Virus record (IMG/VR): IMGVR_UViG_3300037475_000032
Span: 64,001 to 128,000 of that record
Origin: a virus
Reading direction: 5' to 3' (one strand)
Length of the DNA: 64,000 bases
This document shows positions 16,967-47,701 of the stretch, piece after piece. Below the pieces are notes generated by a model. That model worked only from the letters and a program-made list of their open reading frames with translations, ran no database searches and had not been told where the DNA came from. A program made the position numbers and the translations under genes. Position 1 is the first letter of the stretch. Every line of letters starts with the position of its first letter.

Positions 16967-17389
16967 GGGCCTGACAGGCTTCGACTTCATGAGAGGCTGT
17001 TGGCGTCATGCAGCGGTATGGACACACCTTAAGGTCCAACGTCATAATCGGCAACGATACAGACACGCTAGCAATCCCGGCATCGTTCCTTGCAGGTGAG
17101 CAGATGGCTCCTGCGGAGGTTCACGTCGGAGGCGCAGCACTCGCACTGGTTTAGACCCCAGTGCCGGGTTTCTCACACTCCCTGTGAACAGAAAGTGTGA
17201 GTGGTGCATCAGTGCAAGCTCGTACCGTAGTAATGCAGGATGGTAGCCCCGCGCGTTTTCCTAGTTTCCCGATATGAACTAGGTGGTGGAAAAGATGGCG
17301 GCAAGCCCGTCGTCCCCGGTAGTGAAAGCTGCTAGACAATGACCCAAAGAAGCGCATGGAACACGAGGGTTCGATTCCCTCCAGGTCCA
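16967..17389 (+). ncRNA. ssrA: tmRNA
   Basis: 5' GGGCCTGACAGGCTTCGAC, 3' GAGGGTTCGATTCCCTCCAGGTCCA with G3:U70; tag ORF 17050-17154 ending AALALV*. Confidence 0.93.
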
Positions 17390-17393
17390 CTAT

Positions 17394-20847: not shown

Positions 20848-20942
20848 GCGTCTGTAGCTGAATGGTAGAGTCGGCCTCAAAAACCGGCCACAGCACTGGG
20901 TTTTCACCCCAGCGGATGCGGGTTCAAGTCCCGTCAGGCGCA
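20848..20942 (+). tRNA. tRNA-Glu(TTC) with about 20-nt D-loop insertion
   Basis: CTGGG ttTTCac CCCAG; 95 nt. Confidence 0.8.
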
Positions 20943-21026: not shown

Positions 21027-21129
21027 GCCCTTGTGGCGGAATCGGCATACGCATCCGGCTTAAACCCGGCCACGCGAGCTTCCTCTCAACAAGGTCTCGC
21101 ACTTGAGGGTTCGACTCCCTCCAAGGGCA
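21027..21129 (+). tRNA. tRNA-Leu(TAA), oversized variable arm
   Basis: ctTAAac; 103 nt. Confidence 0.85.
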
Positions 21130-21207
21130 CTTCGCCCCAGATCCGCCTCTGCTCGATACTGCGACGGCAGTGAGTATGCGCCTGGGGCCACGAATGTAGT
21201 GAACCAT

Positions 21208-21280
21208 GGCGTGGTTCGTATATCGGTCAATACTCCAGGTTGTGAACCTGGCAAGATGGGTTCGATTCCCATACCTCGCC
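21208..21280 (+). tRNA. tRNA-His(GTG)
   Basis: encoded G-1, C73. Confidence 0.9.
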
Positions 21281-21814: not shown

Positions 21815-21889
21815 GGGTGTGTACCAAATGTTGGCTTTGGAACTGGCTCTTAACCAGAGTACACGCAGGTTCGATTCCTGTCACGCCCA
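21815..21889 (+). tRNA. tRNA-Lys(CTT), atypical
   Basis: CTGG ctCTTaa CCAG. Confidence 0.8.
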
Positions 21890-21890
21890 T

Positions 21891-22025
21891 GGGTGGTCCG
21901 CGAGGACATTGCGGGTTCGAGTCCCGTCATGGACACAACGCCGTTACCTGTGTGTACAGCAGGTGCGCTCGATTCTAGATAGAGCGAGGCCAAGTGCTCG
22001 TGTATGCTAACTGGTAAAGCAGCCC
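21891..22025 (+). ncRNA. circularly permuted tRNA-like RNA (YrlA-like topology)
   Basis: Variable arm, T arm and acceptor 3' strand precede the acceptor 5' strand and D arm. Confidence 0.6.
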
Positions 22026-22033
22026 TAACGCTT

Positions 22034-22108
22034 GTCGCCATCGTCTAGCCTGGTTCAGGACGCGGCCCTCTCACGGCCGAAACACGGGTTCAAATCCCGT
22101 TGGCGGTA
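22034..22108 (+). tRNA. tRNA-Glu(CTC)
   Basis: cloverleaf. Confidence 0.93.
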
Positions 22109-22135
22109 CTTGCTCAGATGTGGTATCCTACCGCC

Positions 22136-22771
22136 ATGAGTCGCGCTAGACCATGGAGGGATCAGGAGACCGGACAAACCCACTGGTTTGACTACCGTTC
22201 TTCCTCCGCCACAGTCGAGCAACTTGAGATCTTGGCCGATGCAGAGGGTCTTGATCTTGACGACCTACTTGACGAGGGCCTGTCGCAAAGGCAGGTGTTG
22301 TTTCGGCTACATGCCGTCACTAACCTCATCCCGGAGAGAGTCCTGGAGCGCAGGCAAGAACGCCTCGAACGCTCCCAGGTCGAACCGATCTGCCGGATAT
22401 GCAGCTTGTACGGATGGGAGTGCGAGGGTAAGATCACTCGTCACCATTTCGTGCCAAGGTGGCTCATGCGAGAGCTTGATAGCTACCAGACCTACGCCGC
22501 GAAGGCGAGGTGTACCATCCCCGTGTGTGTCGGTCGCCACCGCGATCTTCACTACAGGGAAAGTGATATTGACAAGAGCATCGTTCCGTACCTAACGGCT
22601 GAGGAGAAGGAGCTAGCACGCATCCTACTCCAAGAGCTAAAGGACGAGCGTCCAACGATCTACGAGTTGATCGGCGGCGGAAGTACTGCGAGCTACGAGT
22701 ACCAGCTTGTCCGAGACTTTAGGCGAGGAGGTTTCGAGTCAGTGACACATGGAGAAATTGAAGGTCCATAG
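22136..22771 (+). CDS. HNH-like hypothetical protein
   Basis: CRIC..ITRHH..PVCVGRHRDLH; TATCCT-N6-ATG leaderless start. Confidence 0.65.
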   Translation: MSRARPWRDQETGQTHWFDYRSSSATVEQLEILADAEGLDLDDLLDEGLSQRQVLFRLHAVTNLIPERVLERRQERLERSQVEPICRICSLYGWECEGKITRHHFVPRWLMRELDSYQTYAAKARCTIPVCVGRHRDLHYRESDIDKSIVPYLTAEEKELARILLQELKDERPTIYELIGGGSTASYEYQLVRDFRRGGFESVTHGEIEGP

Positions 22772-22884: not shown

Positions 22885-22887
22885 CTA

Positions 22888-22959
22888 GATGCGGTGGCCC
22901 AAGTGAGAGGCAGCCCGACAAGGGAAGAGTTGCCGGAATCCAAACCCGGCTCGCATCTG
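22888..22959 (+). ncRNA. tRNA-like RNA with collapsed anticodon arm
   Basis: AGATGCGG/TCGCATCT stem, D-like arm, CCC gacaa GGG, GCCGG/CCGGC arm. Confidence 0.5.
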
Positions 22960-22973
22960 CTATTGTAGTTCTT

Positions 22974-23498: not shown

Positions 23499-23572
23499 GC
23501 ACTTGTAGCTCAGATGGTAAGAGCACTGGCTTGAAACCCCAGGTGTCGGAGAGTCGAAACCTCCCAAGTGCA
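23499..23572 (+). tRNA. tRNA-Phe(GAA), atypical T arm
   Basis: cloverleaf. Confidence 0.85.
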
Positions 23573-29721: not shown

Positions 29722-31836
29722 ATGAGCCTCAACCTCCTCGATCAGGTAGAACAGACACTAGCGCCGACCAAGGTTGGCATAGTGGAGTTTGCCGAGTCTT
29801 CGGACTACTGCAACAAGCGTCTCTACCCCCGTCAGGCAACCCTTCTCAAGATCATCTTCTTGGAGGAGTTGACAGGGGCGGAGGAGGACGTTCTGGACTA
29901 CTGGATCGCCGGAGGCCGTAACGGTACTGAGATCACCATTTCACCCAACATCCGTGAGCGTATGCAGTACCTACGCGAAAACGGGTACTCGCACTTCCGC
30001 GAGGTTGATCTTGTGGGAGGCCGTCGTAGCTCCAAGGGATTCGTCACTGGACTCGCCATGGCTAAGGTCATGTGGGACTGCTTGCAGCTACAAGACCCAG
30101 GCGAGCACTACGGTATCGACCCCGAGAAGGATATCTACTTCTCATGCGTGGCTGGCTCGGAGCAGCAGGCCAAGGAGTTCCAGTACGCCGACCTTTCGAG
30201 CACGATTGAGACGTGTAGGGCCATGGAGCCCTACCTTGTGAAGTCGTTGGAGACCGAGATTCGAGTCGCCACGAGTACCGACCTTCGCAAGATCTCTCAA
30301 GCCAAGGCCCGAGGCAACCGCATCCAGAAGGATATCGCTCGCCTCAGGGGCAAGGCACTCGCCGCTAACGCCGGAACGCTTCGTGGATCAGCCACCATGG
30401 CTATCTGCATTGACGAGATGGCGCACATGATCCCCGGTGAGTCGAAGGCTGCCGCCGATCAGGTGTACAACGCTTCCGACCCGTCGCTTGACCAGTTCGG
30501 CCTTGACGGCATCATGTTCTGCAACTCGTCACCGTACACCAAGGTCGGGATGTTCTATGAGCGCTACCAGGCATCCCTCATTCCCTTCGACCCGAGCCGT
30601 CCGATTGACGAAGAGGTTGACCCGGAGGAAGGCGAGGTAGCCGCTAATGGCAACCCTCGAACCATGACTTTCCAGTACCCCTCATGGGCTCTATTCGAGG
30701 GCTACCAGTCGAGCAAACACGGCTTCAAGCGAGCCATCACCGTCTCCCCGGACTGGGACCCTGACGCCAAGACCGAGAGTGGCGAGTACGTCTGGAGTGA
30801 GCAAGACCAGAAGGCCATCCGTCAGGCCCGCTCCAAGGAGGCCGACAACCCCGAGACTTACAAGGTCGAGCGTAGGGGCAAGTTCGCTGAGGTAACGGAC
30901 GCCTTCCTCAACCCAACGATGGTGGATCGTATGTTCATGGGTACGCCGCACGAATGGGTCTACGAGACACCAGGCGATACGATCCCCAAGCTCCACTACA
31001 ACCCGCTACCGACCAACTGGGGACAGGGCGCTCTCAACACCTACCGCTACAAGTTCCACGTCGATCCATCGAGCACAACGGCTGGCTTCGGGTTTGCTAT
31101 TGGACACACGGAGATGTTCGACCGTTGGGATGGAGGGGTTGAGGAGCATGTCGTGTTCGACATCATCAAGCGCTGGAATCCCAAAGATTTCCCCGGAGGC
31201 GTCATCCGATGGGACCCGATCCTGGATGAAATCTTCTTCTACGCAGATCTTTTTAGACCGTTTGAGATCACCTTCGATCAGCACCAGTCGGCCGAGCCTA
31301 TTCAGCTACTCCAAGAGCGTTTGCAGGCTCGCAACATAGCCACGCGCGTTTACGAAAAGTTCGCCACCAATGAACTGAACTGGAAGCGTTGGGAGGTCTT
31401 CAAGACCGCCTTGTACCAGGGATTGGTCCATGGCCCATACGACACAGAGGATGCTCATTGGTGCGCTCAGGAGTTGAAGTTCTTGCAGCAGAACAGCACG
31501 AGCGGCAAGTTCCCTCGCGTCGATAGGCAGGAGATCGGCCCCGTCCAGACCAAGGATATGGCGGACTGCGTATCCGAGATCACCCATTCACTCATCGGGA
31601 ACCTGATGGTGAACCGCATGAGGGATCGCTTGTCGCAAGGTGCTCTGCTAGGTGGATCACCGGGCGGATACCGCATCGGTGGAGGCAATGGGCCGCCTGG
31701 AGGACCCGGACCTGTAGGCATCTCCGACTACTATTCGTCGCGCTCGAAGAAGGAGGCACGAGAGTACCAGAACCCATCTCGTGGGGTCGTGGGCGGAGGG
31801 CGCAACCGAATGGGCCGCAACAGGGCCAGATGGTAG
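29722..31836 (+). CDS. terminase large subunit
   Basis: LYPRQ, VGGRRSSKG, ICIDEMAH, NSSP, HVDPS, FDQHQS, KDMAD. Confidence 0.9.
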   Translation: MSLNLLDQVEQTLAPTKVGIVEFAESSDYCNKRLYPRQATLLKIIFLEELTGAEEDVLDYWIAGGRNGTEITISPNIRERMQYLRENGYSHFREVDLVGGRRSSKGFVTGLAMAKVMWDCLQLQDPGEHYGIDPEKDIYFSCVAGSEQQAKEFQYADLSSTIETCRAMEPYLVKSLETEIRVATSTDLRKISQAKARGNRIQKDIARLRGKALAANAGTLRGSATMAICIDEMAHMIPGESKAAADQVYNASDPSLDQFGLDGIMFCNSSPYTKVGMFYERYQASLIPFDPSRPIDEEVDPEEGEVAANGNPRTMTFQYPSWALFEGYQSSKHGFKRAITVSPDWDPDAKTESGEYVWSEQDQKAIRQARSKEADNPETYKVERRGKFAEVTDAFLNPTMVDRMFMGTPHEWVYETPGDTIPKLHYNPLPTNWGQGALNTYRYKFHVDPSSTTAGFGFAIGHTEMFDRWDGGVEEHVVFDIIKRWNPKDFPGGVIRWDPILDEIFFYADLFRPFEITFDQHQSAEPIQLLQERLQARNIATRVYEKFATNELNWKRWEVFKTALYQGLVHGPYDTEDAHWCAQELKFLQQNSTSGKFPRVDRQEIGPVQTKDMADCVSEITHSLIGNLMVNRMRDRLSQGALLGGSPGGYRIGGGNGPPGGPGPVGISDYYSSRSKKEAREYQNPSRGVVGGGRNRMGRNRARW

Positions 31837-31885: not shown

Positions 31886-32890
31886 ATGACCGATCTAGTT
31901 CCCACATTCGTCCGCAAGGAGGGCATGGTCTATGCCATCCTTGAGGATCGAGTGATCGCAAGCGGGAAGGACTTCAACAAGGTGGAGAAGTCCGCCGTTG
32001 AGTATCTTGATGGACTCAAGACAACCCGCGCAGATCAGGAGAAGGAGAGCCGCCAGAAGGCTGCTACTCACATCGTTACCCCGAACGGGCTCAAGGGCGA
32101 GATCCTTGGGCGCACTGAGGGTATGTGGGGAGAGAAGGAGATCACGGTTCGCTTCGAGAACGGACGCATCGCCAAGTTCCAGGCACATGGCGGCAACGAC
32201 GACCAGATCCAGTACACAACTGAGGCCGCCGACGCACCGTCCAACCCAATCGAGGCGCTACAGCAGGAGCTTGATGCAGACTTCGGGCGCGACAAGGCTG
32301 CCCTTACCTCTCGCGTCGCTTCGCTCGACTCCATCATCTCAGAGGTCTCAAATCATCTCAGAGTCGGAGCCTCCTACACGGATGAGCAAGCTCTCTCGAA
32401 GATCGCTCTACAGGCTGAGCACGAGAAGGGTGAGGTTAACGACGCACTTGCTTACTTGGAGCAGGTTGACGCCGAGAACCTTGGCTACACACCTCCGGTC
32501 CACTCGGCTGTTGAGCAGGCAGAACTTGGACGTGCCAAGGGCGATAGCTGGCTTGACCATACGGTCCAGGCCATGATCGATGAGAGCGCAGGCATCGACT
32601 ACGACAAGATGCTTCGTGAGGAGCCGGGTCAGTTCGTCGCCAGTCTCGAAACAGGCACACTTGCCTCGCAGGGCGTCGTCAGCGAGCTTGCTCACTCACA
32701 CGTCATTGCCAAGACAGCTTCCTTCACAGGTGAGAATGTTGAGTCCTACCGTGATCTCTACGTCGCCGCCGTGGAGCAGGCCCGCAGAGCGGAGCTAGCG
32801 TCCCGTCAAGAGACAGCGAGGAAGGAGGCATCGGTGCAGGAGGATGACCTATCTGGCATCCCCGATGATGTCCTCTTCATGGGAAGGTAG
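31886..32890 (+). CDS. hypothetical virion-associated protein
   Basis: Between terminase and portal. Confidence 0.7.
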   Translation: MTDLVPTFVRKEGMVYAILEDRVIASGKDFNKVEKSAVEYLDGLKTTRADQEKESRQKAATHIVTPNGLKGEILGRTEGMWGEKEITVRFENGRIAKFQAHGGNDDQIQYTTEAADAPSNPIEALQQELDADFGRDKAALTSRVASLDSIISEVSNHLRVGASYTDEQALSKIALQAEHEKGEVNDALAYLEQVDAENLGYTPPVHSAVEQAELGRAKGDSWLDHTVQAMIDESAGIDYDKMLREEPGQFVASLETGTLASQGVVSELAHSHVIAKTASFTGENVESYRDLYVAAVEQARRAELASRQETARKEASVQEDDLSGIPDDVLFMGR

Positions 32891-44209: not shown

Positions 44210-47200
44210 ATGTATATGTGGGACCCGAACAGCATCAGTCAGGATCAGTTGCACGAATACCGCAACGCCGCTGAATCGGCATGGGGCGATGACACACGTC
44301 ATCCTGACTTCGTAGGGCACCCAGACCCAAGTGCGGGCCAGTGCTACGTCACGTCCAAGTGGCTCACGGGCGAGCTTGGCGGTCATGTTGGGTTGAAGAA
44401 TGGTCATTACTTCTGGGTCTCACCGGACAAGAGCCACGTCATTGATCTGACCGGCGATCAGTTCTCTAGTCCACCACCTTCGGGCAGGATGAACTTCCTG
44501 GACGGCCAGCCCGTGGATTCAGAGGACGAAGCCTATGAGCCCGAGACACGCGGATGGCGACCAGGACCCATCATGTTCAAGCGTGCTAATCACCCGCTCT
44601 ACAAGGGATTCAGGATCAAGGCCGATCCTCAGCCTCCGCAGGATCAGAGAGATTGGGAAGACCTGGAACAGTCACCTCGCATCAACGACCGTCTCCAGCG
44701 CTTCACTCGTCGTGCGAACGCTGCTCTCACCAATCCCACGAGTCGCACAGCCGATCTCATGGGAATCGGGAACCCGATGAGTGAACCGCAGGCAGAAGAG
44801 GATCTGAACCAGCGTTACCTTCACGATACAATGAGTGATCTGCAAATGACGCAGGAACCAATCGACCGAGAGTACAAGTTCTTCTATGGACACGGACAAC
44901 TACACGTATCACCCGTTCATTCTCACGACGAACTCCGAGATCACTCTGGGACATCCCCTGACGAGAACGGACCAATCGCCGTGGGTTACGTTCATGTTCA
45001 CGGAGGAGATGCTGTTTGGTCTATTGAGACTAACGTTGCCGCTCGCGGACTCGTTCGCGTCCTTAAGGACTACAGCAAGACTGTGGGTTGGAAATGGAAC
45101 GGAGTGGTTGGAGGCGACGGAGCACCCATCCATGATGACTTCGGCGCTACGAAGTCTATGTGGTACAAGGCCAACGCTGATGGAGAGGTACAGATCGCAG
45201 ATGGACCTTTCCGAGGAGCCTCCCGCATCGACATCGTTGGCAGGACCGCCCATTATGCTCGATCCGCGTCTACCAGCAGTTATGGCGATGCTCTCAGAGA
45301 ATGGGCCGACGACTTCGGATACCGCCTAGCCGAGTACCCAGGCGGCACGGACATGACCGACCGCACAAAGAACTGGGAGGACTTGGAGCTTCACAACAAC
45401 TCCGACCCCGAATGGGACCCGGAGAAGGCATACGACGGAGCGCCTATTGGTCCTCTCACATGCGGCACATGCGGCTTCGAGGCACCTGACTTCAATACCC
45501 TCATCCTCCATCGCAGACTGCACGAGGGAGAGGACGAAGACCGCATCCAGGATGGTCACTTCCCGACGCTCAACGACCGTGACGATACGCTACCGCTTAG
45601 GCGCAGGAACGTCAACCCTACGGCGTCACCTCTTGCCTCTTTCCGCGAAGCATCAGTGGTGGATGGCTTCGACCTGTACGCGAGCCTGTGGGGATACGAC
45701 CGTGACGAGGGATTGCGCTTCTACGGTGGTTACCTGAATGGTCAACTTCTCGGCTACGGGGTCGTGCGTCCCGGCGATGATGGAGCCGAGGTCGTCATGA
45801 TCCACTCATCCATCCCCAACGTCGGCATCGGTACGGTACTCGCTGAGAAGATCAAGCAGCACTACCCGGTTCTGACCACGCACGCCGATAGTCCCGAGGG
45901 CGAACGCCTTGCCAAGCGCATGGGGATGGTCAATGTCGAGGGTCAGCTATACAAGTGGGCCGCAGGCGAAGAACCGAAGGACATGATCCAGGCCCCCGTC
46001 CCGTTTATCTACGACATCCAGCAAGACCACATCACCACGGGTCATCCGGGCATGAAGACATCGGACATCATGGGCCAGTTCACGCCCGGTGGTATAGTTG
46101 AGGGCTACTACGAGCCGGGCGGCAAGGTGGTCATCAACACGTCCACCAACATGCCGTACAGCACGTACCACATGATGCAGCTATGGTATTGGACGCACCC
46201 ACAAATGCAAATCGTCGGCCTTGAACTAGAAGACCAGCAGGGCAAGAGGCAGAAGCTAGCGGCTACTGAGATCGGCCCCTACCTCAAGACGCTCGTGGGA
46301 ACCGACGCCGCTGCATGGAACGCCTACCAGGCGCTACGCAATGCAGGCGGGAAGGTCTATGCCGTAGGTGGCGCAGTACGCGATGCTCTGCTTGGCAAGG
46401 ACCCCAAGGATATTGACCTGATGGTCTCCGGCGTTCCGCCCGAGCAGGTCTCTCATGTCCTTGAACAGCTTCCTGGCCGCGTAGACTTGACTGGTAAGCG
46501 CTTCGGTGTCTACCGCTACAAGACAAAGGGTCAAGAGGTCGAGATTGCTCTGCCACGCGAGGACACCTACGATGGTGAGCGTCGCGGTCAGGGCAAGATC
46601 ACCGTTGATCCTAGCCTTCCGGTTGAGGATGACCTAAGGCGTCGTGACTTTACTGTCAACAGCATGGCCGTGGATCTTGACACAGGTAAGCTCATCGACC
46701 CATACGGAGGCGAGAAGGATGCCGAGTCCCACACGCTTAGAACCACTCACCCTTCGTCCTTCGAGGAGGACCCAACTCGCCTTGTACGTGCGCTTGTGGC
46801 TTCTTCCCGCCACGGTCTGGTTCCAGACGAGAGGACCCGTCAGGAGATGGCAGAGAACGCATCGCGCCTCGACCGTGAGTCCCCCGATGCCCTTAAGCAG
46901 CAGCTAGACAAGCTGCTTGAAAGCCCCAATCCGGCAGGGGCACTCAGACTAGCCCATGACACAGGTGTCCTGCGTCATCTATTCCCTGAGGTCGATGCGA
47001 ACTTCGACTACGATCAGAACAACACGCATCACTCATACTCGCTGGGTGAGCACTCACTGAACGTGCTCGACAACGCGAGTCGTCTGACTACGGACCCAGA
47101 TCTTCGTCTCGCTGCCCTGCTCCACGATCAGGGCAAGCCGGACTCGGCATGGGTAGACCCGGAGAAGGGCACGACTCACTACTACGAAAAGTTCATCGAC

Positions 47201-47701
47201 GGCCAGCCTGTAGGAGCCGATCACGCACAGGTGGGAGCCGACATGGCCGAGAAGCGCCTGCGCGAGACCTACAACTTCCCGGTGGCTCGCATCCGTCGTG
47301 TGCGTGAACTGATTGAACACCACATGTTCCCGGCCTTCTCGTCACCCAAGGGCGCACGCAAGTTCCTCAACCGTGTAGGCGACCACGCTGACGATCTCCT
47401 TACGCTGCGCGAAGCCGACATGACCGGCAAGGGGCAGAGCGAGGAGGAAGTCGCTGAAAGGACCAGCGCCGATAGGATGCGCAATCTCGTGGAGCAGGCC
47501 CGTCAGGCAGGCGCACCCACAGATCAGTCGTCCCTCAGTCTCAACGGCAACGACATTGTTGGCATGGGAGTGAAGCCCGGACCACAGGTCGGGCAGATCC
47601 TCCGCCAGTTGACCAATGATGTGGTTGAGGAACCGCAGTTGAACGACAGAGACGCCCTCACTCAGCGAGCACAGGAGTACATCAATGCACTTCCAGCATA
47701 G
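44210..47701 (+). CDS. multidomain protein: YunG-like, GNAT-like, CCA-adding enzyme (class II NTase) + HD
   Basis: GQCYVTS..HYF..IDLTGDQF; GIGT; VGGAVRD..KDID, DLRRRDFTVN, FEEDPTRLVR, LLHDQGK. Confidence 0.9.
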   Translation: MYMWDPNSISQDQLHEYRNAAESAWGDDTRHPDFVGHPDPSAGQCYVTSKWLTGELGGHVGLKNGHYFWVSPDKSHVIDLTGDQFSSPPPSGRMNFLDGQPVDSEDEAYEPETRGWRPGPIMFKRANHPLYKGFRIKADPQPPQDQRDWEDLEQSPRINDRLQRFTRRANAALTNPTSRTADLMGIGNPMSEPQAEEDLNQRYLHDTMSDLQMTQEPIDREYKFFYGHGQLHVSPVHSHDELRDHSGTSPDENGPIAVGYVHVHGGDAVWSIETNVAARGLVRVLKDYSKTVGWKWNGVVGGDGAPIHDDFGATKSMWYKANADGEVQIADGPFRGASRIDIVGRTAHYARSASTSSYGDALREWADDFGYRLAEYPGGTDMTDRTKNWEDLELHNNSDPEWDPEKAYDGAPIGPLTCGTCGFEAPDFNTLILHRRLHEGEDEDRIQDGHFPTLNDRDDTLPLRRRNVNPTASPLASFREASVVDGFDLYASLWGYDRDEGLRFYGGYLNGQLLGYGVVRPGDDGAEVVMIHSSIPNVGIGTVLAEKIKQHYPVLTTHADSPEGERLAKRMGMVNVEGQLYKWAAGEEPKDMIQAPVPFIYDIQQDHITTGHPGMKTSDIMGQFTPGGIVEGYYEPGGKVVINTSTNMPYSTYHMMQLWYWTHPQMQIVGLELEDQQGKRQKLAATEIGPYLKTLVGTDAAAWNAYQALRNAGGKVYAVGGAVRDALLGKDPKDIDLMVSGVPPEQVSHVLEQLPGRVDLTGKRFGVYRYKTKGQEVEIALPREDTYDGERRGQGKITVDPSLPVEDDLRRRDFTVNSMAVDLDTGKLIDPYGGEKDAESHTLRTTHPSSFEEDPTRLVRALVASSRHGLVPDERTRQEMAENASRLDRESPDALKQQLDKLLESPNPAGALRLAHDTGVLRHLFPEVDANFDYDQNNTHHSYSLGEHSLNVLDNASRLTTDPDLRLAALLHDQGKPDSAWVDPEKGTTHYYEKFIDGQPVGADHAQVGADMAEKRLRETYNFPVARIRRVRELIEHHMFPAFSSPKGARKFLNRVGDHADDLLTLREADMTGKGQSEEEVAERTSADRMRNLVEQARQAGAPTDQSSLSLNGNDIVGMGVKPGPQVGQILRQLTNDVVEEPQLNDRDALTQRAQEYINALPA

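What the first reader, a model, noticed from the sequence alone, without database searches (positions are those of the whole stretch)
21891..22025. Circularly permuted tRNA mimic lacking an anticodon loop
Order seen: GGGT (anticodon 3' strand), variable arm GTCC-GCGA-GGAC, T arm GCGGG-TTCGAGT-CCCGT, acceptor 3' strand CATGGACAC, a linker of about 55 nt with two hairpins (ACCTG/CAGGT, GCTC/GAGC), acceptor 5' strand GTGCTCGTG, D arm TGCT-AACTGGTAA-AGCA, then GCCC. A class II tRNA elbow is rebuilt with the halves swapped. Bacterial YrlA Y RNAs have a similar topology, but no Ro-binding stem or Ro60 gene is evident. It could be a decoy for RNase P, synthetases or toxins, or a permuted tRNA gene. 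The acceptor pairing has one mismatch and two G:U pairs.
Basis: partly seen in the sequence, partly recalled or inferred. Interest (0 to 1): 0.78.

Follow-up and report, generated by a model that had tools for sequence, protein, structure and literature searches.

The report
Ro-less inside-out tRNA mimic RNA
Between two ordinary tRNA genes of a 161-kb soil phage lies a gene for a small RNA folded like a tRNA turned inside out (closed acceptor end, no anticodon loop); it is the tRNA-like half of a bacterial Y RNA (YrlA) without the part that binds the Ro60 protein, in a phage that has no Ro60 gene.

Summary
Window 21890-22033 lies between tRNA-Lys(CUU) and tRNA-Glu(CUC). The acceptor stem is capped by a 57-nt two-hairpin junction.

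It is not debris of two tRNAs. Related uncultured phages carry the same kind of module beside tRNA-Glu(CUC): L017 in the same slot with the same length, and L015 and L001 just downstream. The helices are kept through compensatory changes. Acceptor cells pair 25/28 in register, against 8-14 when slid.

The architecture is that of YrlA. One relative carries a Ro60 (TROVE) gene and a canonical YrlA in the same tRNA array. This complete phage has no TROVE, DUF2828 or RtcB gene. The element has no terminal Ro-binding helix and no CGAA motif. It also cannot regenerate an anticodon loop, so a permuted tRNA gene is rejected.

Best reading: a Ro-independent YrlA-type tRNA mimic, released by tRNA-processing enzymes and acting through its tRNA elbow as a decoy or tether. 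The partner is unknown.

It is a new variant of a known kind. This scan has reported similar permuted tRNA mimics in other phages, mostly beside Ro60-like genes. The module is absent from most relatives, and there are no expression data.

The parts
21815..21889 (+). tRNA-Lys(CUU). Its 3' processing defines the 5' end of the element.
   Evidence: ARAGORN; Rfam tRNA 44.3 bits.
21891..21894 (+). Closing stem, 5' strand (GGGU). It is the analogue of the 3' strand of the anticodon stem plus position 44.
   Evidence: MFE pairs it with 22022-22025. It covaries in relatives: GGG/CCC, CGG/CCG, GGGG/CCCC.
21896..21907 (+). V (variable-arm) hairpin GUCC-GCGA-GGAC with a GNRA loop.
   Evidence: YrlA RNAs have a V stem-loop upstream of T (PMC4201824).
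21911..21927 (+). T arm GCGGG-UUCGAGU-CCCGU.
   Evidence: The 22-mer formed with the next 5 nt is identical in two Ro60-linked phage YrlAs, L003 and L005.
21928..21936 (+). Acceptor stem, 3' strand (CAUGGAC plus AC extension). No CCA is encoded.
   Evidence: register control.
21937..21993 (+). Cap on the acceptor stem: a 3x3 internal loop, the GCC/GGC helix, and a three-way junction with a 7-bp hairpin (21945-21965) and a 5-bp hairpin (21966-21986).
   Evidence: MFE. L017 has a two-hairpin cap of similar size in the same place.
21994..22002 (+). Acceptor stem, 5' strand (GU extension plus GCUCGUG).
22003..22021 (+). U8 A9, then D arm UGCU-AACUGGUAA-AGCA.
   Evidence: By my reading of the two sequences, 22 of 28 bases match the L015 module over the stretch from U8 to 7 nt past the D arm.
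22022..22025 (+). Closing stem, 3' strand (GCCC).
22026..22033 (+). Single-stranded 3' tail UAACGCUU, ending where RNase P would cut tRNA-Glu. CCCUAACG is shared with the canonical YrlA of relative G004.
   Evidence: Sequence.
22034..22109 (+). tRNA-Glu(CUC), the conserved neighbour of the module in all relatives that have it.

Best explanation
The element is a free-standing YrlA-type tRNA mimic.

Production (inferred): it is transcribed as part of the phage's long tRNA operon. It is set free as an RNA of about 144 nt by the enzymes that trim its neighbours. Cleavage after the discriminator of tRNA-Lys gives its 5' end, and RNase P cleavage at tRNA-Glu gives its 3' end.

Fold (shown): it folds as a tRNA L-shape in which T loop and D loop can form the elbow. 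The acceptor end is closed by a two-hairpin cap. The anticodon stem is reduced to 3-4 pairs and is open.

What it lacks (shown): an anticodon loop, a CCA end, a Ro60-binding helix and a CGAA motif.

Family (shown): it belongs to a small family of such modules kept next to tRNA-Glu(CUC) in a clade of uncultured 145-170 kb phages. These are distantly related to cluster C mycobacteriophages.

Origin (inferred): it is related to, or descended from, the YrlA that sits beside Ro60 in one member of that clade.

Function (inferred): the tRNA-like domain alone is the working part. It occupies a protein or ribozyme that recognises the tRNA elbow and acceptor helix, as a decoy or tether. It cannot itself be decoded, charged or cut in an anticodon loop. 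Candidate partners are RNase P, PNPase, tRNA-modifying enzymes, or a tRNA-targeting host nuclease.
For: Fold: the unconstrained MFE gives exactly the permuted cloverleaf.

Not part of any tRNA.

Recurrence:
- L017 has a 144-nt spacer in the same slot, with a T arm, an 8-bp acceptor with a two-hairpin cap, a D arm and a 9-bp closing helix.
- L015 and L001 carry short forms just after tRNA-Glu(CUC).
- L015 has a 9-bp acceptor hairpin capped by GAAA.

Covariation in the hand-anchored table: 74/80 cells paired, and 14/20 pairs show changes on both sides. The acceptor strands sit at fixed offsets from the T and D stems. They pair 25/28 in register against 8-14 when slid by 1-4 nt (binomial P about 2e-8). 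Module cores are 37-63% identical. The working tRNA-Glu orthologues of the same phages are 49-70% identical.

Link to YrlA:
- A model built from own plus L015 finds the canonical YrlA next to the TROVE gene of relative G004 as the next-best match in the seven arrays fetched (23.5 bits, E 2e-4).
- The T arm plus CAUGG 22-mer is identical in the Ro60-linked YrlAs L003 and L005.

No partner genes: no TROVE, DUF2828 or RtcB in this complete genome. tblastn with G004's Ro60 finds nothing. G006, which carries L017, is complete and also lacks TROVE.

Transcription: no promoter-like or terminator-like site flanks the element.

Literature:
- YrlA is a permuted tRNA with a closed acceptor, and its effector is expected to be an elbow-binding tRNA protein (10.1101/312249).
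- M. smegmatis YrlA is cut by RNase P and receives CCA (PMC4201824).
- Phage Y-like RNAs bind host PNPase in EMSA without Ro60 (PMC12135203).
Against: - There are no transcript, processing or binding data.
- The module is absent from most relatives. L047 has Lys(CUU)-15 nt-Glu(CUC). L022, L043 and L045 have 3-10 nt there. So it is dispensable.
- L018's copy has lost acceptor pairing.
- The T loops of L015 (AUCGUUC) and L017 (UGCAAUU) are not canonical, so strict elbow mimicry is not conserved across the family.
- The closing stem here is only 3 G-C pairs plus one G.U.
- Fold energy is ordinary (z +0.37).
- The covariance model from own plus L015 does not recover L017 as a full-length match. 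Its homology rests on position, size, architecture and short junction motifs.
- My pair table was anchored by hand on the structure, which favours it.
- The closest relatives (95%, 80% and 71% identical neighbouring protein) could not be fetched.
Confidence: 0.6

Rival explanations
1. Evolutionary relic. The array once held a Ro60 gene with YrlA RNAs, as in relative G004. Ro60 and the Ro-binding helix were lost, and the tRNA-like stump is decaying without function.
For: G004 has TROVE plus YrlA in the same array. The module is missing in most relatives and is degenerate in L018. The array holds other tRNA-like oddities. T loops are non-canonical in L015 and L017.
Against: The helices are kept by compensatory changes at a divergence where even functional tRNA-Glu is only 49-70% identical. 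G004 keeps a handle-less module beside tRNA-Glu in addition to its canonical YrlA, so the handle-less form is not simply what remains after Ro60 loss. The own copy keeps all tRNA tertiary-contact bases.
Confidence: 0.2
2. RNase P substrate that becomes a two-piece tRNA-like RNA. As in M. smegmatis YrlA, RNase P cuts 5' of the 7-bp acceptor strand at 21996. The cap is trimmed back and the phage CCA-adding enzyme adds CCA. The result is a split, anticodon-less tRNA body that might be charged or might bind CCA-end readers.
For: All four modules have an acceptor stem in exact 7-bp register. [quoted passage not shown] The phage encodes a tRNA nucleotidyltransferase domain.
Against: Positions -1 and -2 are paired with 73 and 74 here and in L015, which usually disfavours RNase P cleavage (general knowledge). 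L015 closes the stem with a stable GAAA tetraloop. No amino-acid identity elements are conserved: G3.U70 occurs only in L017.
Confidence: 0.12
3. A true Y RNA that works in trans with the host's own Rsr/Ro60.
For: Actinobacterial hosts such as M. smegmatis encode Rsr (PMC4201824). The phage's terminase is related to actinophage terminases. The V hairpin 5' strand reads GGUCCG, six of the seven bases of the vertebrate Ro-contact motif GGUCCGA quoted in PMC4201824.
Against: There is no terminal helix beyond 4 bp, because flanking tRNAs abut the element. No CGAA or GNCGAAN0-1G motif occurs in the element or within 300 nt. GGUCCG is sequestered in its own hairpin and is not conserved in L017, L015 or L001.
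Confidence: 0.07
4. A circularly permuted tRNA gene whose halves are joined into a working tRNA, as in Cyanidioschyzon merolae.
For: The 3' half precedes the 5' half, and the acceptor strands pair.
Against: Joining 22033 to 21890 gives CCC + UAACGCUUU + GGG. That is a 3-bp stem with a 9-nt loop, 15 nt where 17 are needed. There is no RtcB ligase in the genome. Bacteria lack the splicing endonuclease that processes such genes (general knowledge). Relatives close the same position with unrelated helices of different length.
Confidence: 0.02

Closest known systems
YrlA (Y RNA-like A; Rfam RF02553), the tRNA-mimicking Y RNA bound by bacterial and mycobacteriophage Ro60/Rsr (Chen et al. 2014, PMC4201824; Wang et al. 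2018, 10.1101/312249)
   Same: - Same order of parts: closing stem, V hairpin, T arm, closed acceptor stem-loop, D arm.
- Same tRNA tertiary-contact bases, including the A15:U48 alternative of the Levitt pair.
- The T arm plus CAUGG is identical to Ro60-linked phage YrlAs.
- It is encoded among tRNA genes.
- A long acceptor arm is also reported for some cyanobacterial YrlAs.
   Different: - No Ro-binding helix formed by the RNA ends and no GNCGAAN0-1G motif.
- No Ro60 (TROVE) or DUF2828 gene in the complete genome.
- The D stem is UGCU/AGCA instead of the conserved GCUC/GAGC.
- The acceptor stem carries a 57-nt two-hairpin three-way junction.
- It scores 15.7 bits against a gathering score of 69.
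Circularly permuted tRNA genes of Cyanidioschyzon merolae and other algae
   Same: The 3' half (T arm, acceptor 3' strand) is encoded upstream of the 5' half (acceptor 5' strand, D arm), with an intervening sequence between the acceptor strands.
   Different: No anticodon loop can be regenerated. No BHB motif, splicing endonuclease or ligase is available. No CCA-ready processing is evident.
Two-piece (permuted) tmRNA of alpha-proteobacteria and cyanobacteria
   Same: The T arm and acceptor 3' strand precede a spacer, which is followed by the acceptor 5' strand and a D-like element.
   Different: There is no tag reading frame and there are no pseudoknots. Only 12 nt follow the D arm. The phage already has a standard one-piece tmRNA at 16967-17390.
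Handle-bearing tRNA mimics beside DUF2828 Ro60-like genes in phages
   Same: Permuted or tRNA-shaped RNAs inside phage tRNA clusters.
   Different: There is no DUF2828 gene here and no unpaired ACAGC(A/G)A handle. The only ACAGC (21956) lies inside a hairpin and reads ACAGCAG.

Membership tests
YrlA (RF02553) | tRNA-like module in the order V, T arm, closed acceptor stem-loop, D arm, closed by a stem at the anticodon-stem position | tested here: met
   MFE fold. The cmscan alignment places the T arm, acceptor stem and D arm on the model.
YrlA (RF02553) | Bases for tRNA tertiary contacts (U8, A14, 15:48 pair, G18 G19, T-loop UUCRA) | tested here: met
   Read from the sequence: U8, A14, A15 with U48, GG in the D loop, UUCGAGU.
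YrlA (RF02553) | Helix formed by the 5' and 3' ends carrying the GNCGAAN0-1G (CGAA) Ro60-binding motif | tested here: not met
   Only 4 pairs form before the flanking tRNAs begin. There is no CGAA in the element and no GNCGAAN0-1G within 300 nt.
YrlA (RF02553) | Encoded within about 4 kb of a Ro60/Rsr gene on the same strand | tested here: not met
   No TROVE or DUF2828 in the complete 160,765-bp genome. tblastn with a relative's Ro60 finds nothing below E = 1.
YrlA (RF02553) | Rfam gathering score (69 bits) | tested here: not met
   It scores 15.7 bits, below four dimeric-tRNA junction hits in the same genome. The genuine YrlA next to Ro gp239 of phage Pio also reaches only 36.1 bits, so the threshold is strict for phage members.
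YrlA (RF02553) | Physical binding to Rsr/Ro60 | not testable with these tools
   Needs EMSA or co-immunoprecipitation.
Permuted tRNA gene | 3' half upstream of 5' half with pairing acceptor strands | tested here: met
Permuted tRNA gene | Joined ends rebuild a 5-bp anticodon stem and a 7-nt loop | tested here: not met
   CCC + 9 nt + GGG: 15 nt where 17 are needed, with 3 pairs.
Permuted tRNA gene | Ligase or splicing machinery available | tested here: inconclusive
   No RtcB in the phage. The host is unknown.
Canonical tRNA | Detected by ARAGORN or Rfam RF00005 | tested here: not met
   There is no tRNA call or RF00005 match inside 21890-22033, even at E up to 10.
Two-piece tmRNA | Tag reading frame and pseudoknots downstream of the D-like element | tested here: not met
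   Twelve nt separate the D arm from tRNA-Glu. ARAGORN finds one standard tmRNA elsewhere.

The most novel reading that the evidence does not exclude
The tRNA-like domain of Y RNAs is a functional unit on its own. Phages keep handle-less, Ro60-independent copies of it in their tRNA operons. tRNA-processing enzymes excise these copies. They then act as uncleavable and undecodable decoys or tethers for a tRNA-elbow-binding factor, either a host tRNA-targeting defence nuclease or an RNA-decay or processing enzyme such as PNPase or RNase P. If so, this minimal RNA would be a clean bait for the still unknown effector of the YrlA tRNA domain.
Probability: 0.3. Interest if true: 0.75.

Novelty: new variant of a known kind. 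Interest (0 to 1): 0.5.

Why it matters
YrlA RNAs have been known since 2014 as tRNA mimics tied to Ro60. What their tRNA-like domain binds is still unknown (PMC4201824; 10.1101/312249).

Here the tRNA-like domain stands alone. It has no Ro60 handle and no Ro60 gene. It lies in a complete phage genome, and related phages keep similar modules whose helices are preserved by compensatory changes. That argues the domain has a Ro60-independent job.

It also offers a minimal natural construct for pull-downs to find the partner. In addition, it adds to the picture of phage tRNA operons as sources of tRNA-shaped non-coding RNAs, alongside spare tRNAs.

Tried and rejected
- Rfam YrlA match as evidence: rejected. 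The 15.7-bit hit is weaker than four hits in the same genome that span junctions of adjacent tRNAs, the false-positive class that Chen et al. warn about.
- Parent tRNA: blastn-short of each half and of the linker against all tRNAs of this and related arrays found only generic T-arm similarity.
- Close relatives:
  - Exact-pattern scans of IMG/VR for the D-arm half found nothing.
  - A degenerate D-arm pattern found only ordinary long tRNAs.
  - GenBank phages gave only tRNA-level DNA matches outside the element, and tblastn with the neighbouring protein found nothing.
  - GTDB genomes have one weak partial hit.
- Covariance model R1 (own plus L015) did not recover L017 as a full-length match. 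MAFFT could not align the 3' halves of all members, nor place acceptor 5' strands in common columns for a core-only model. I therefore counted pairs with my own anchored script instead of the count of structure pairs.
- ACAGCAA 'handle' of DUF2828-linked RNAs (earlier notes): not present.
- A second candidate in G007 with a 104-nt insert turned out to fold differently. A long helix uses the supposed D arm.
- The neighbouring 211-aa protein as a known RNA-binding partner: no Pfam, PHROG or PDB sequence match, and no Foldseek match at E <= 0.001. Only weak HNH-nuclease fold similarity was found (Z 3.1-3.8).

Full report
CONTEXT

The window is bases 64001-128000 of a 160,765-bp IMG/VR virus record with direct terminal repeats, rated 100% complete. 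Window 14.6-25.1 kb is one co-oriented array. ARAGORN finds 46 tRNAs and a tmRNA there, and Rfam adds three tRNAs that ARAGORN misses. The large terminase (29722-31836) is 33-36% identical to those of Rhodococcus phage E3, Gordonia phages and cluster C mycobacteriophages. This group is known for tRNA arrays, tmRNA and a Ro60 gene. No cultured phage has the neighbouring 211-aa protein.

THE OBSERVATION

The element fills the 144 nt between tRNA-Lys(CUU), which ends at 21889, and tRNA-Glu(CUC), which starts at 22034. RNAfold without constraints returns the following:
- a closing stem, GGGU/GCCC;
- a V hairpin with a GCGA loop;
- a T arm, GCGGG-UUCGAGU-CCCGU;
- a 9-position acceptor helix with one C.A mismatch;
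- UA at positions 8-9;
- a D arm, UGCU-AACUGGUAA-AGCA.

The stretch between the acceptor strands forms a 3x3 internal loop, a GCC/GGC helix and two hairpins.

The fold is not unusually stable (z +0.37). No tRNA model matches the stretch even at E up to 10.

A structure-only search for this architecture hits 2% of shuffles. With tRNA-specific bases also required, it is the only module in the window and in the phage's tRNA array whose T and D arms both lie outside annotated tRNAs.

THE RFAM YrlA HIT IS NOT EVIDENCE

The element aligns end to end with the YrlA model at 15.7 bits, against a gathering score of 69. Four hits in the same genome score higher, and they span junctions of neighbouring tRNAs. 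Chen et al. describe this false-positive class. The real YrlA upstream of the Ro gene gp239 of phage Pio also reaches only 36 bits.

RELATIVES

The 211-aa protein just downstream (22136-22771) has about 300 homologues. An alignment of 32 of them (A1) fetched 8 viral and 13 metagenome loci at 46-60% identity. All carry syntenic tRNA arrays...His, Ile(UAU), [Lys], Glu(CUC), this protein, Arg, Lys, Arg, Gly....

The spacers next to tRNA-Glu(CUC) were then read:
- L017 has a 144-nt spacer in the same slot. It reads GGGAG-AGGUC-GCAGG-UGCAAUU-CCUGU-CAUGUCA, then 60 nt, then UGGCGUG-UA and a D arm. Its MFE shows the T arm, an 8-bp acceptor helix capped by two hairpins, and a 9-bp closing helix (z -1.7).
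- L015 has a short form just after tRNA-Glu. It consists of CGG-U, a T arm, a 9-position acceptor hairpin capped by GAAA, UA, the D arm UGCC-AAUUGGGAG-AGCA, and G-CCG. By my reading, 22 of 28 bases match the element here over the stretch from U8 to 7 nt past the D arm.
- L001 (the same contig as L021) has another short form there.
- L018 has a copy whose acceptor pairing is lost.
- Most other relatives have only 3-15 nt at that place, for example L047 with Lys(CUU)-15 nt-Glu(CUC).
- A further free-standing module follows tRNA-Leu(CAA) in G007.

COVARIATION

I anchored own, L017, L015 and L001 on their T and D hairpins. In that table 74 of 80 cells form standard pairs, and 14 of 20 pairs show changes on both sides.

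The acceptor strands were not chosen by me. They sit directly after the T stem and 2 nt before the D stem. They pair in 25 of 28 cells in register, against 8-14 when slid by 1-4 nt (P about 2e-8).

The closing stem reads GGG/CCC, GGGG/CCCC, CGG/CCG and AAA/UUC.

Module cores are 37-63% identical. The orthologous tRNA-Glu genes are 49-70% identical. The module therefore evolves a little faster than a working tRNA but keeps its helices.

The halves pair, and they are not remnants of two tRNAs. There is also no room for the missing halves, because intact tRNAs abut both ends.

RELATION TO Ro60 AND YrlA

The complete genome has no TROVE, no DUF2828 and no RtcB. tblastn with a relative's Ro60 finds nothing. 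G005, G006 (which carries L017), G007 and G009 also lack TROVE.

G004, the phage of L015, encodes a 486-aa TROVE protein inside its tRNA array. Directly upstream of that gene lie a canonical YrlA and a second T-arm RNA. That YrlA shares GGG...CCCUAACG with the element here. It is the next-best hit of the model built from own plus L015 (23.5 bits).

Two unrelated IMG/VR phages that share the exact 22-mer (T arm plus CAUGG) carry it in YrlAs beside TROVE genes.

The element is therefore of YrlA kind, but it fails two defining features of the family. It has no terminal Ro-binding helix and no CGAA motif, and there is no Ro60 gene. G004 keeps a handle-less module beside tRNA-Glu in addition to its canonical YrlA. 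This suggests the handle-less form is a type of its own, not merely what remains after Ro60 loss.

MECHANISM

Shown: the fold, the recurrence, the compensatory changes, and the absence of Ro60, of the Ro-binding handle, of an anticodon loop and of CCA.

Inferred:
- The element is co-transcribed with the array, since no promoter-like or terminator-like sites flank it.
- It is released by the enzymes that process the flanking tRNAs.
- It acts through the tRNA elbow.

The literature expects the YrlA effector to be an elbow-binding tRNA protein. [quoted passage not shown] It also reports phage Y-like RNAs binding host PNPase without Ro60.

I therefore favour a decoy or tether for a tRNA-recognising factor. 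A variant is that RNase P opens the cap and the phage CCA-adding enzyme finishes a two-piece RNA. Pairing of positions -1 and -2 with 73 and 74 argues against that variant.

A permuted tRNA gene is rejected. The joined ends give 3 pairs and a 9-nt loop.

VERDICT

This is a real, selected, YrlA-type tRNA mimic without a Ro60 module. It is a new variant of a known kind. This scan has already reported comparable permuted tRNA mimics in other phages, mostly beside Ro60-like genes. This one differs in lacking both the gene and the handle.

The weak points are patchy distribution among relatives, non-canonical T loops in two members, a hand-anchored alignment, no access to the closest relatives, and no expression data.

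Noticed in passing
window 22136-22771 (+): A 211-aa protein with a CxxC...HH...CxC..HRDLH motif. It lies between tRNA-Glu(CUC) and tRNA-Arg in every relative found, and has about 300 homologues at 46-95% identity. It has no Pfam, PHROG or PDB sequence match. The AlphaFold model has pLDDT 88. Only weak fold similarity of residues 83-211 to HNH/His-Me nucleases was found (Z 3.1-3.8). It is a stable resident of the tRNA array, unlike a roaming homing endonuclease. In L015, L001 and L018 the tRNA-like module lies in its leader.
   Followed up: partly
window 44210-47701 (+): A 1163-aa ORF whose residues 714-1139 are a tRNA nucleotidyltransferase (CCA-adding) domain (PF01743, phrog_2244). The N-terminal 700 residues are unassigned. 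Going by ARAGORN's gene ends, CCA does not seem to be encoded in the array's tRNAs.
   Followed up: partly
L023:1468-1780 (G004 contig 32488-32800), and the TROVE ORF after it: A relative of this phage carries a Ro60 (TROVE, 486 aa) gene inside its tRNA array. It is preceded by a canonical YrlA and a second T-arm RNA, and both share the motif GUUACUUCGG.
   Followed up: partly
window 21133-21208: A stem, GCCCCAG...CUGGGGC, enclosing about 45 nt and followed by CACGAAUG. It lies between tRNA-Leu(UAA) and tRNA-His, the slot where relative G004 has YrlA, a second RNA and the Ro60 gene. It may be a remnant of that locus or another structured RNA.
   Followed up: partly
window 22886-22973: An 88-nt gap between tRNA-Arg(GCG) and tRNA-Arg(UCG), with no tRNA call. 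In most relatives tRNA-Lys(CUU) sits there. It is probably an altered or decayed tRNA-Lys.
   Followed up: no
window 20848-20942, 21027-21129, 23499-23572: Rfam tRNA matches (52-60 bits) that ARAGORN misses. The first two are 95 and 103 nt long. The second reads as tRNA-Leu(UAA) with a very long variable arm.
   Followed up: no
L027:508-600 (-) = G007: Another free-standing permuted tRNA-like module, directly after tRNA-Leu(CAA). It has 7/7 acceptor pairs, an 11-nt loop, a canonical T loop and D loop, and a 5-bp closing stem. It lies in a complete phage genome without TROVE.
   Followed up: partly
window 21942-21951 and L027:262-462 (-): The 10-mer CGUUACCUGU in the acceptor cap is shared with a larger structured element downstream of the G007 module. 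In both it is the 5' strand of a helix. Chance expectation is about 0.006.
   Followed up: partly
window 21895-21900: The 5' strand of the V hairpin reads GGUCCG, six of the seven bases of the vertebrate Ro60-contact motif GGUCCGA. It is not conserved in the related modules, and chance expectation is about 3%. Unexplained.
   Followed up: no
L003:1589-2370 (-): An unrelated 95.6-kb IMG/VR phage carries three tandem YrlA-like modules next to its TROVE gene.
   Followed up: no
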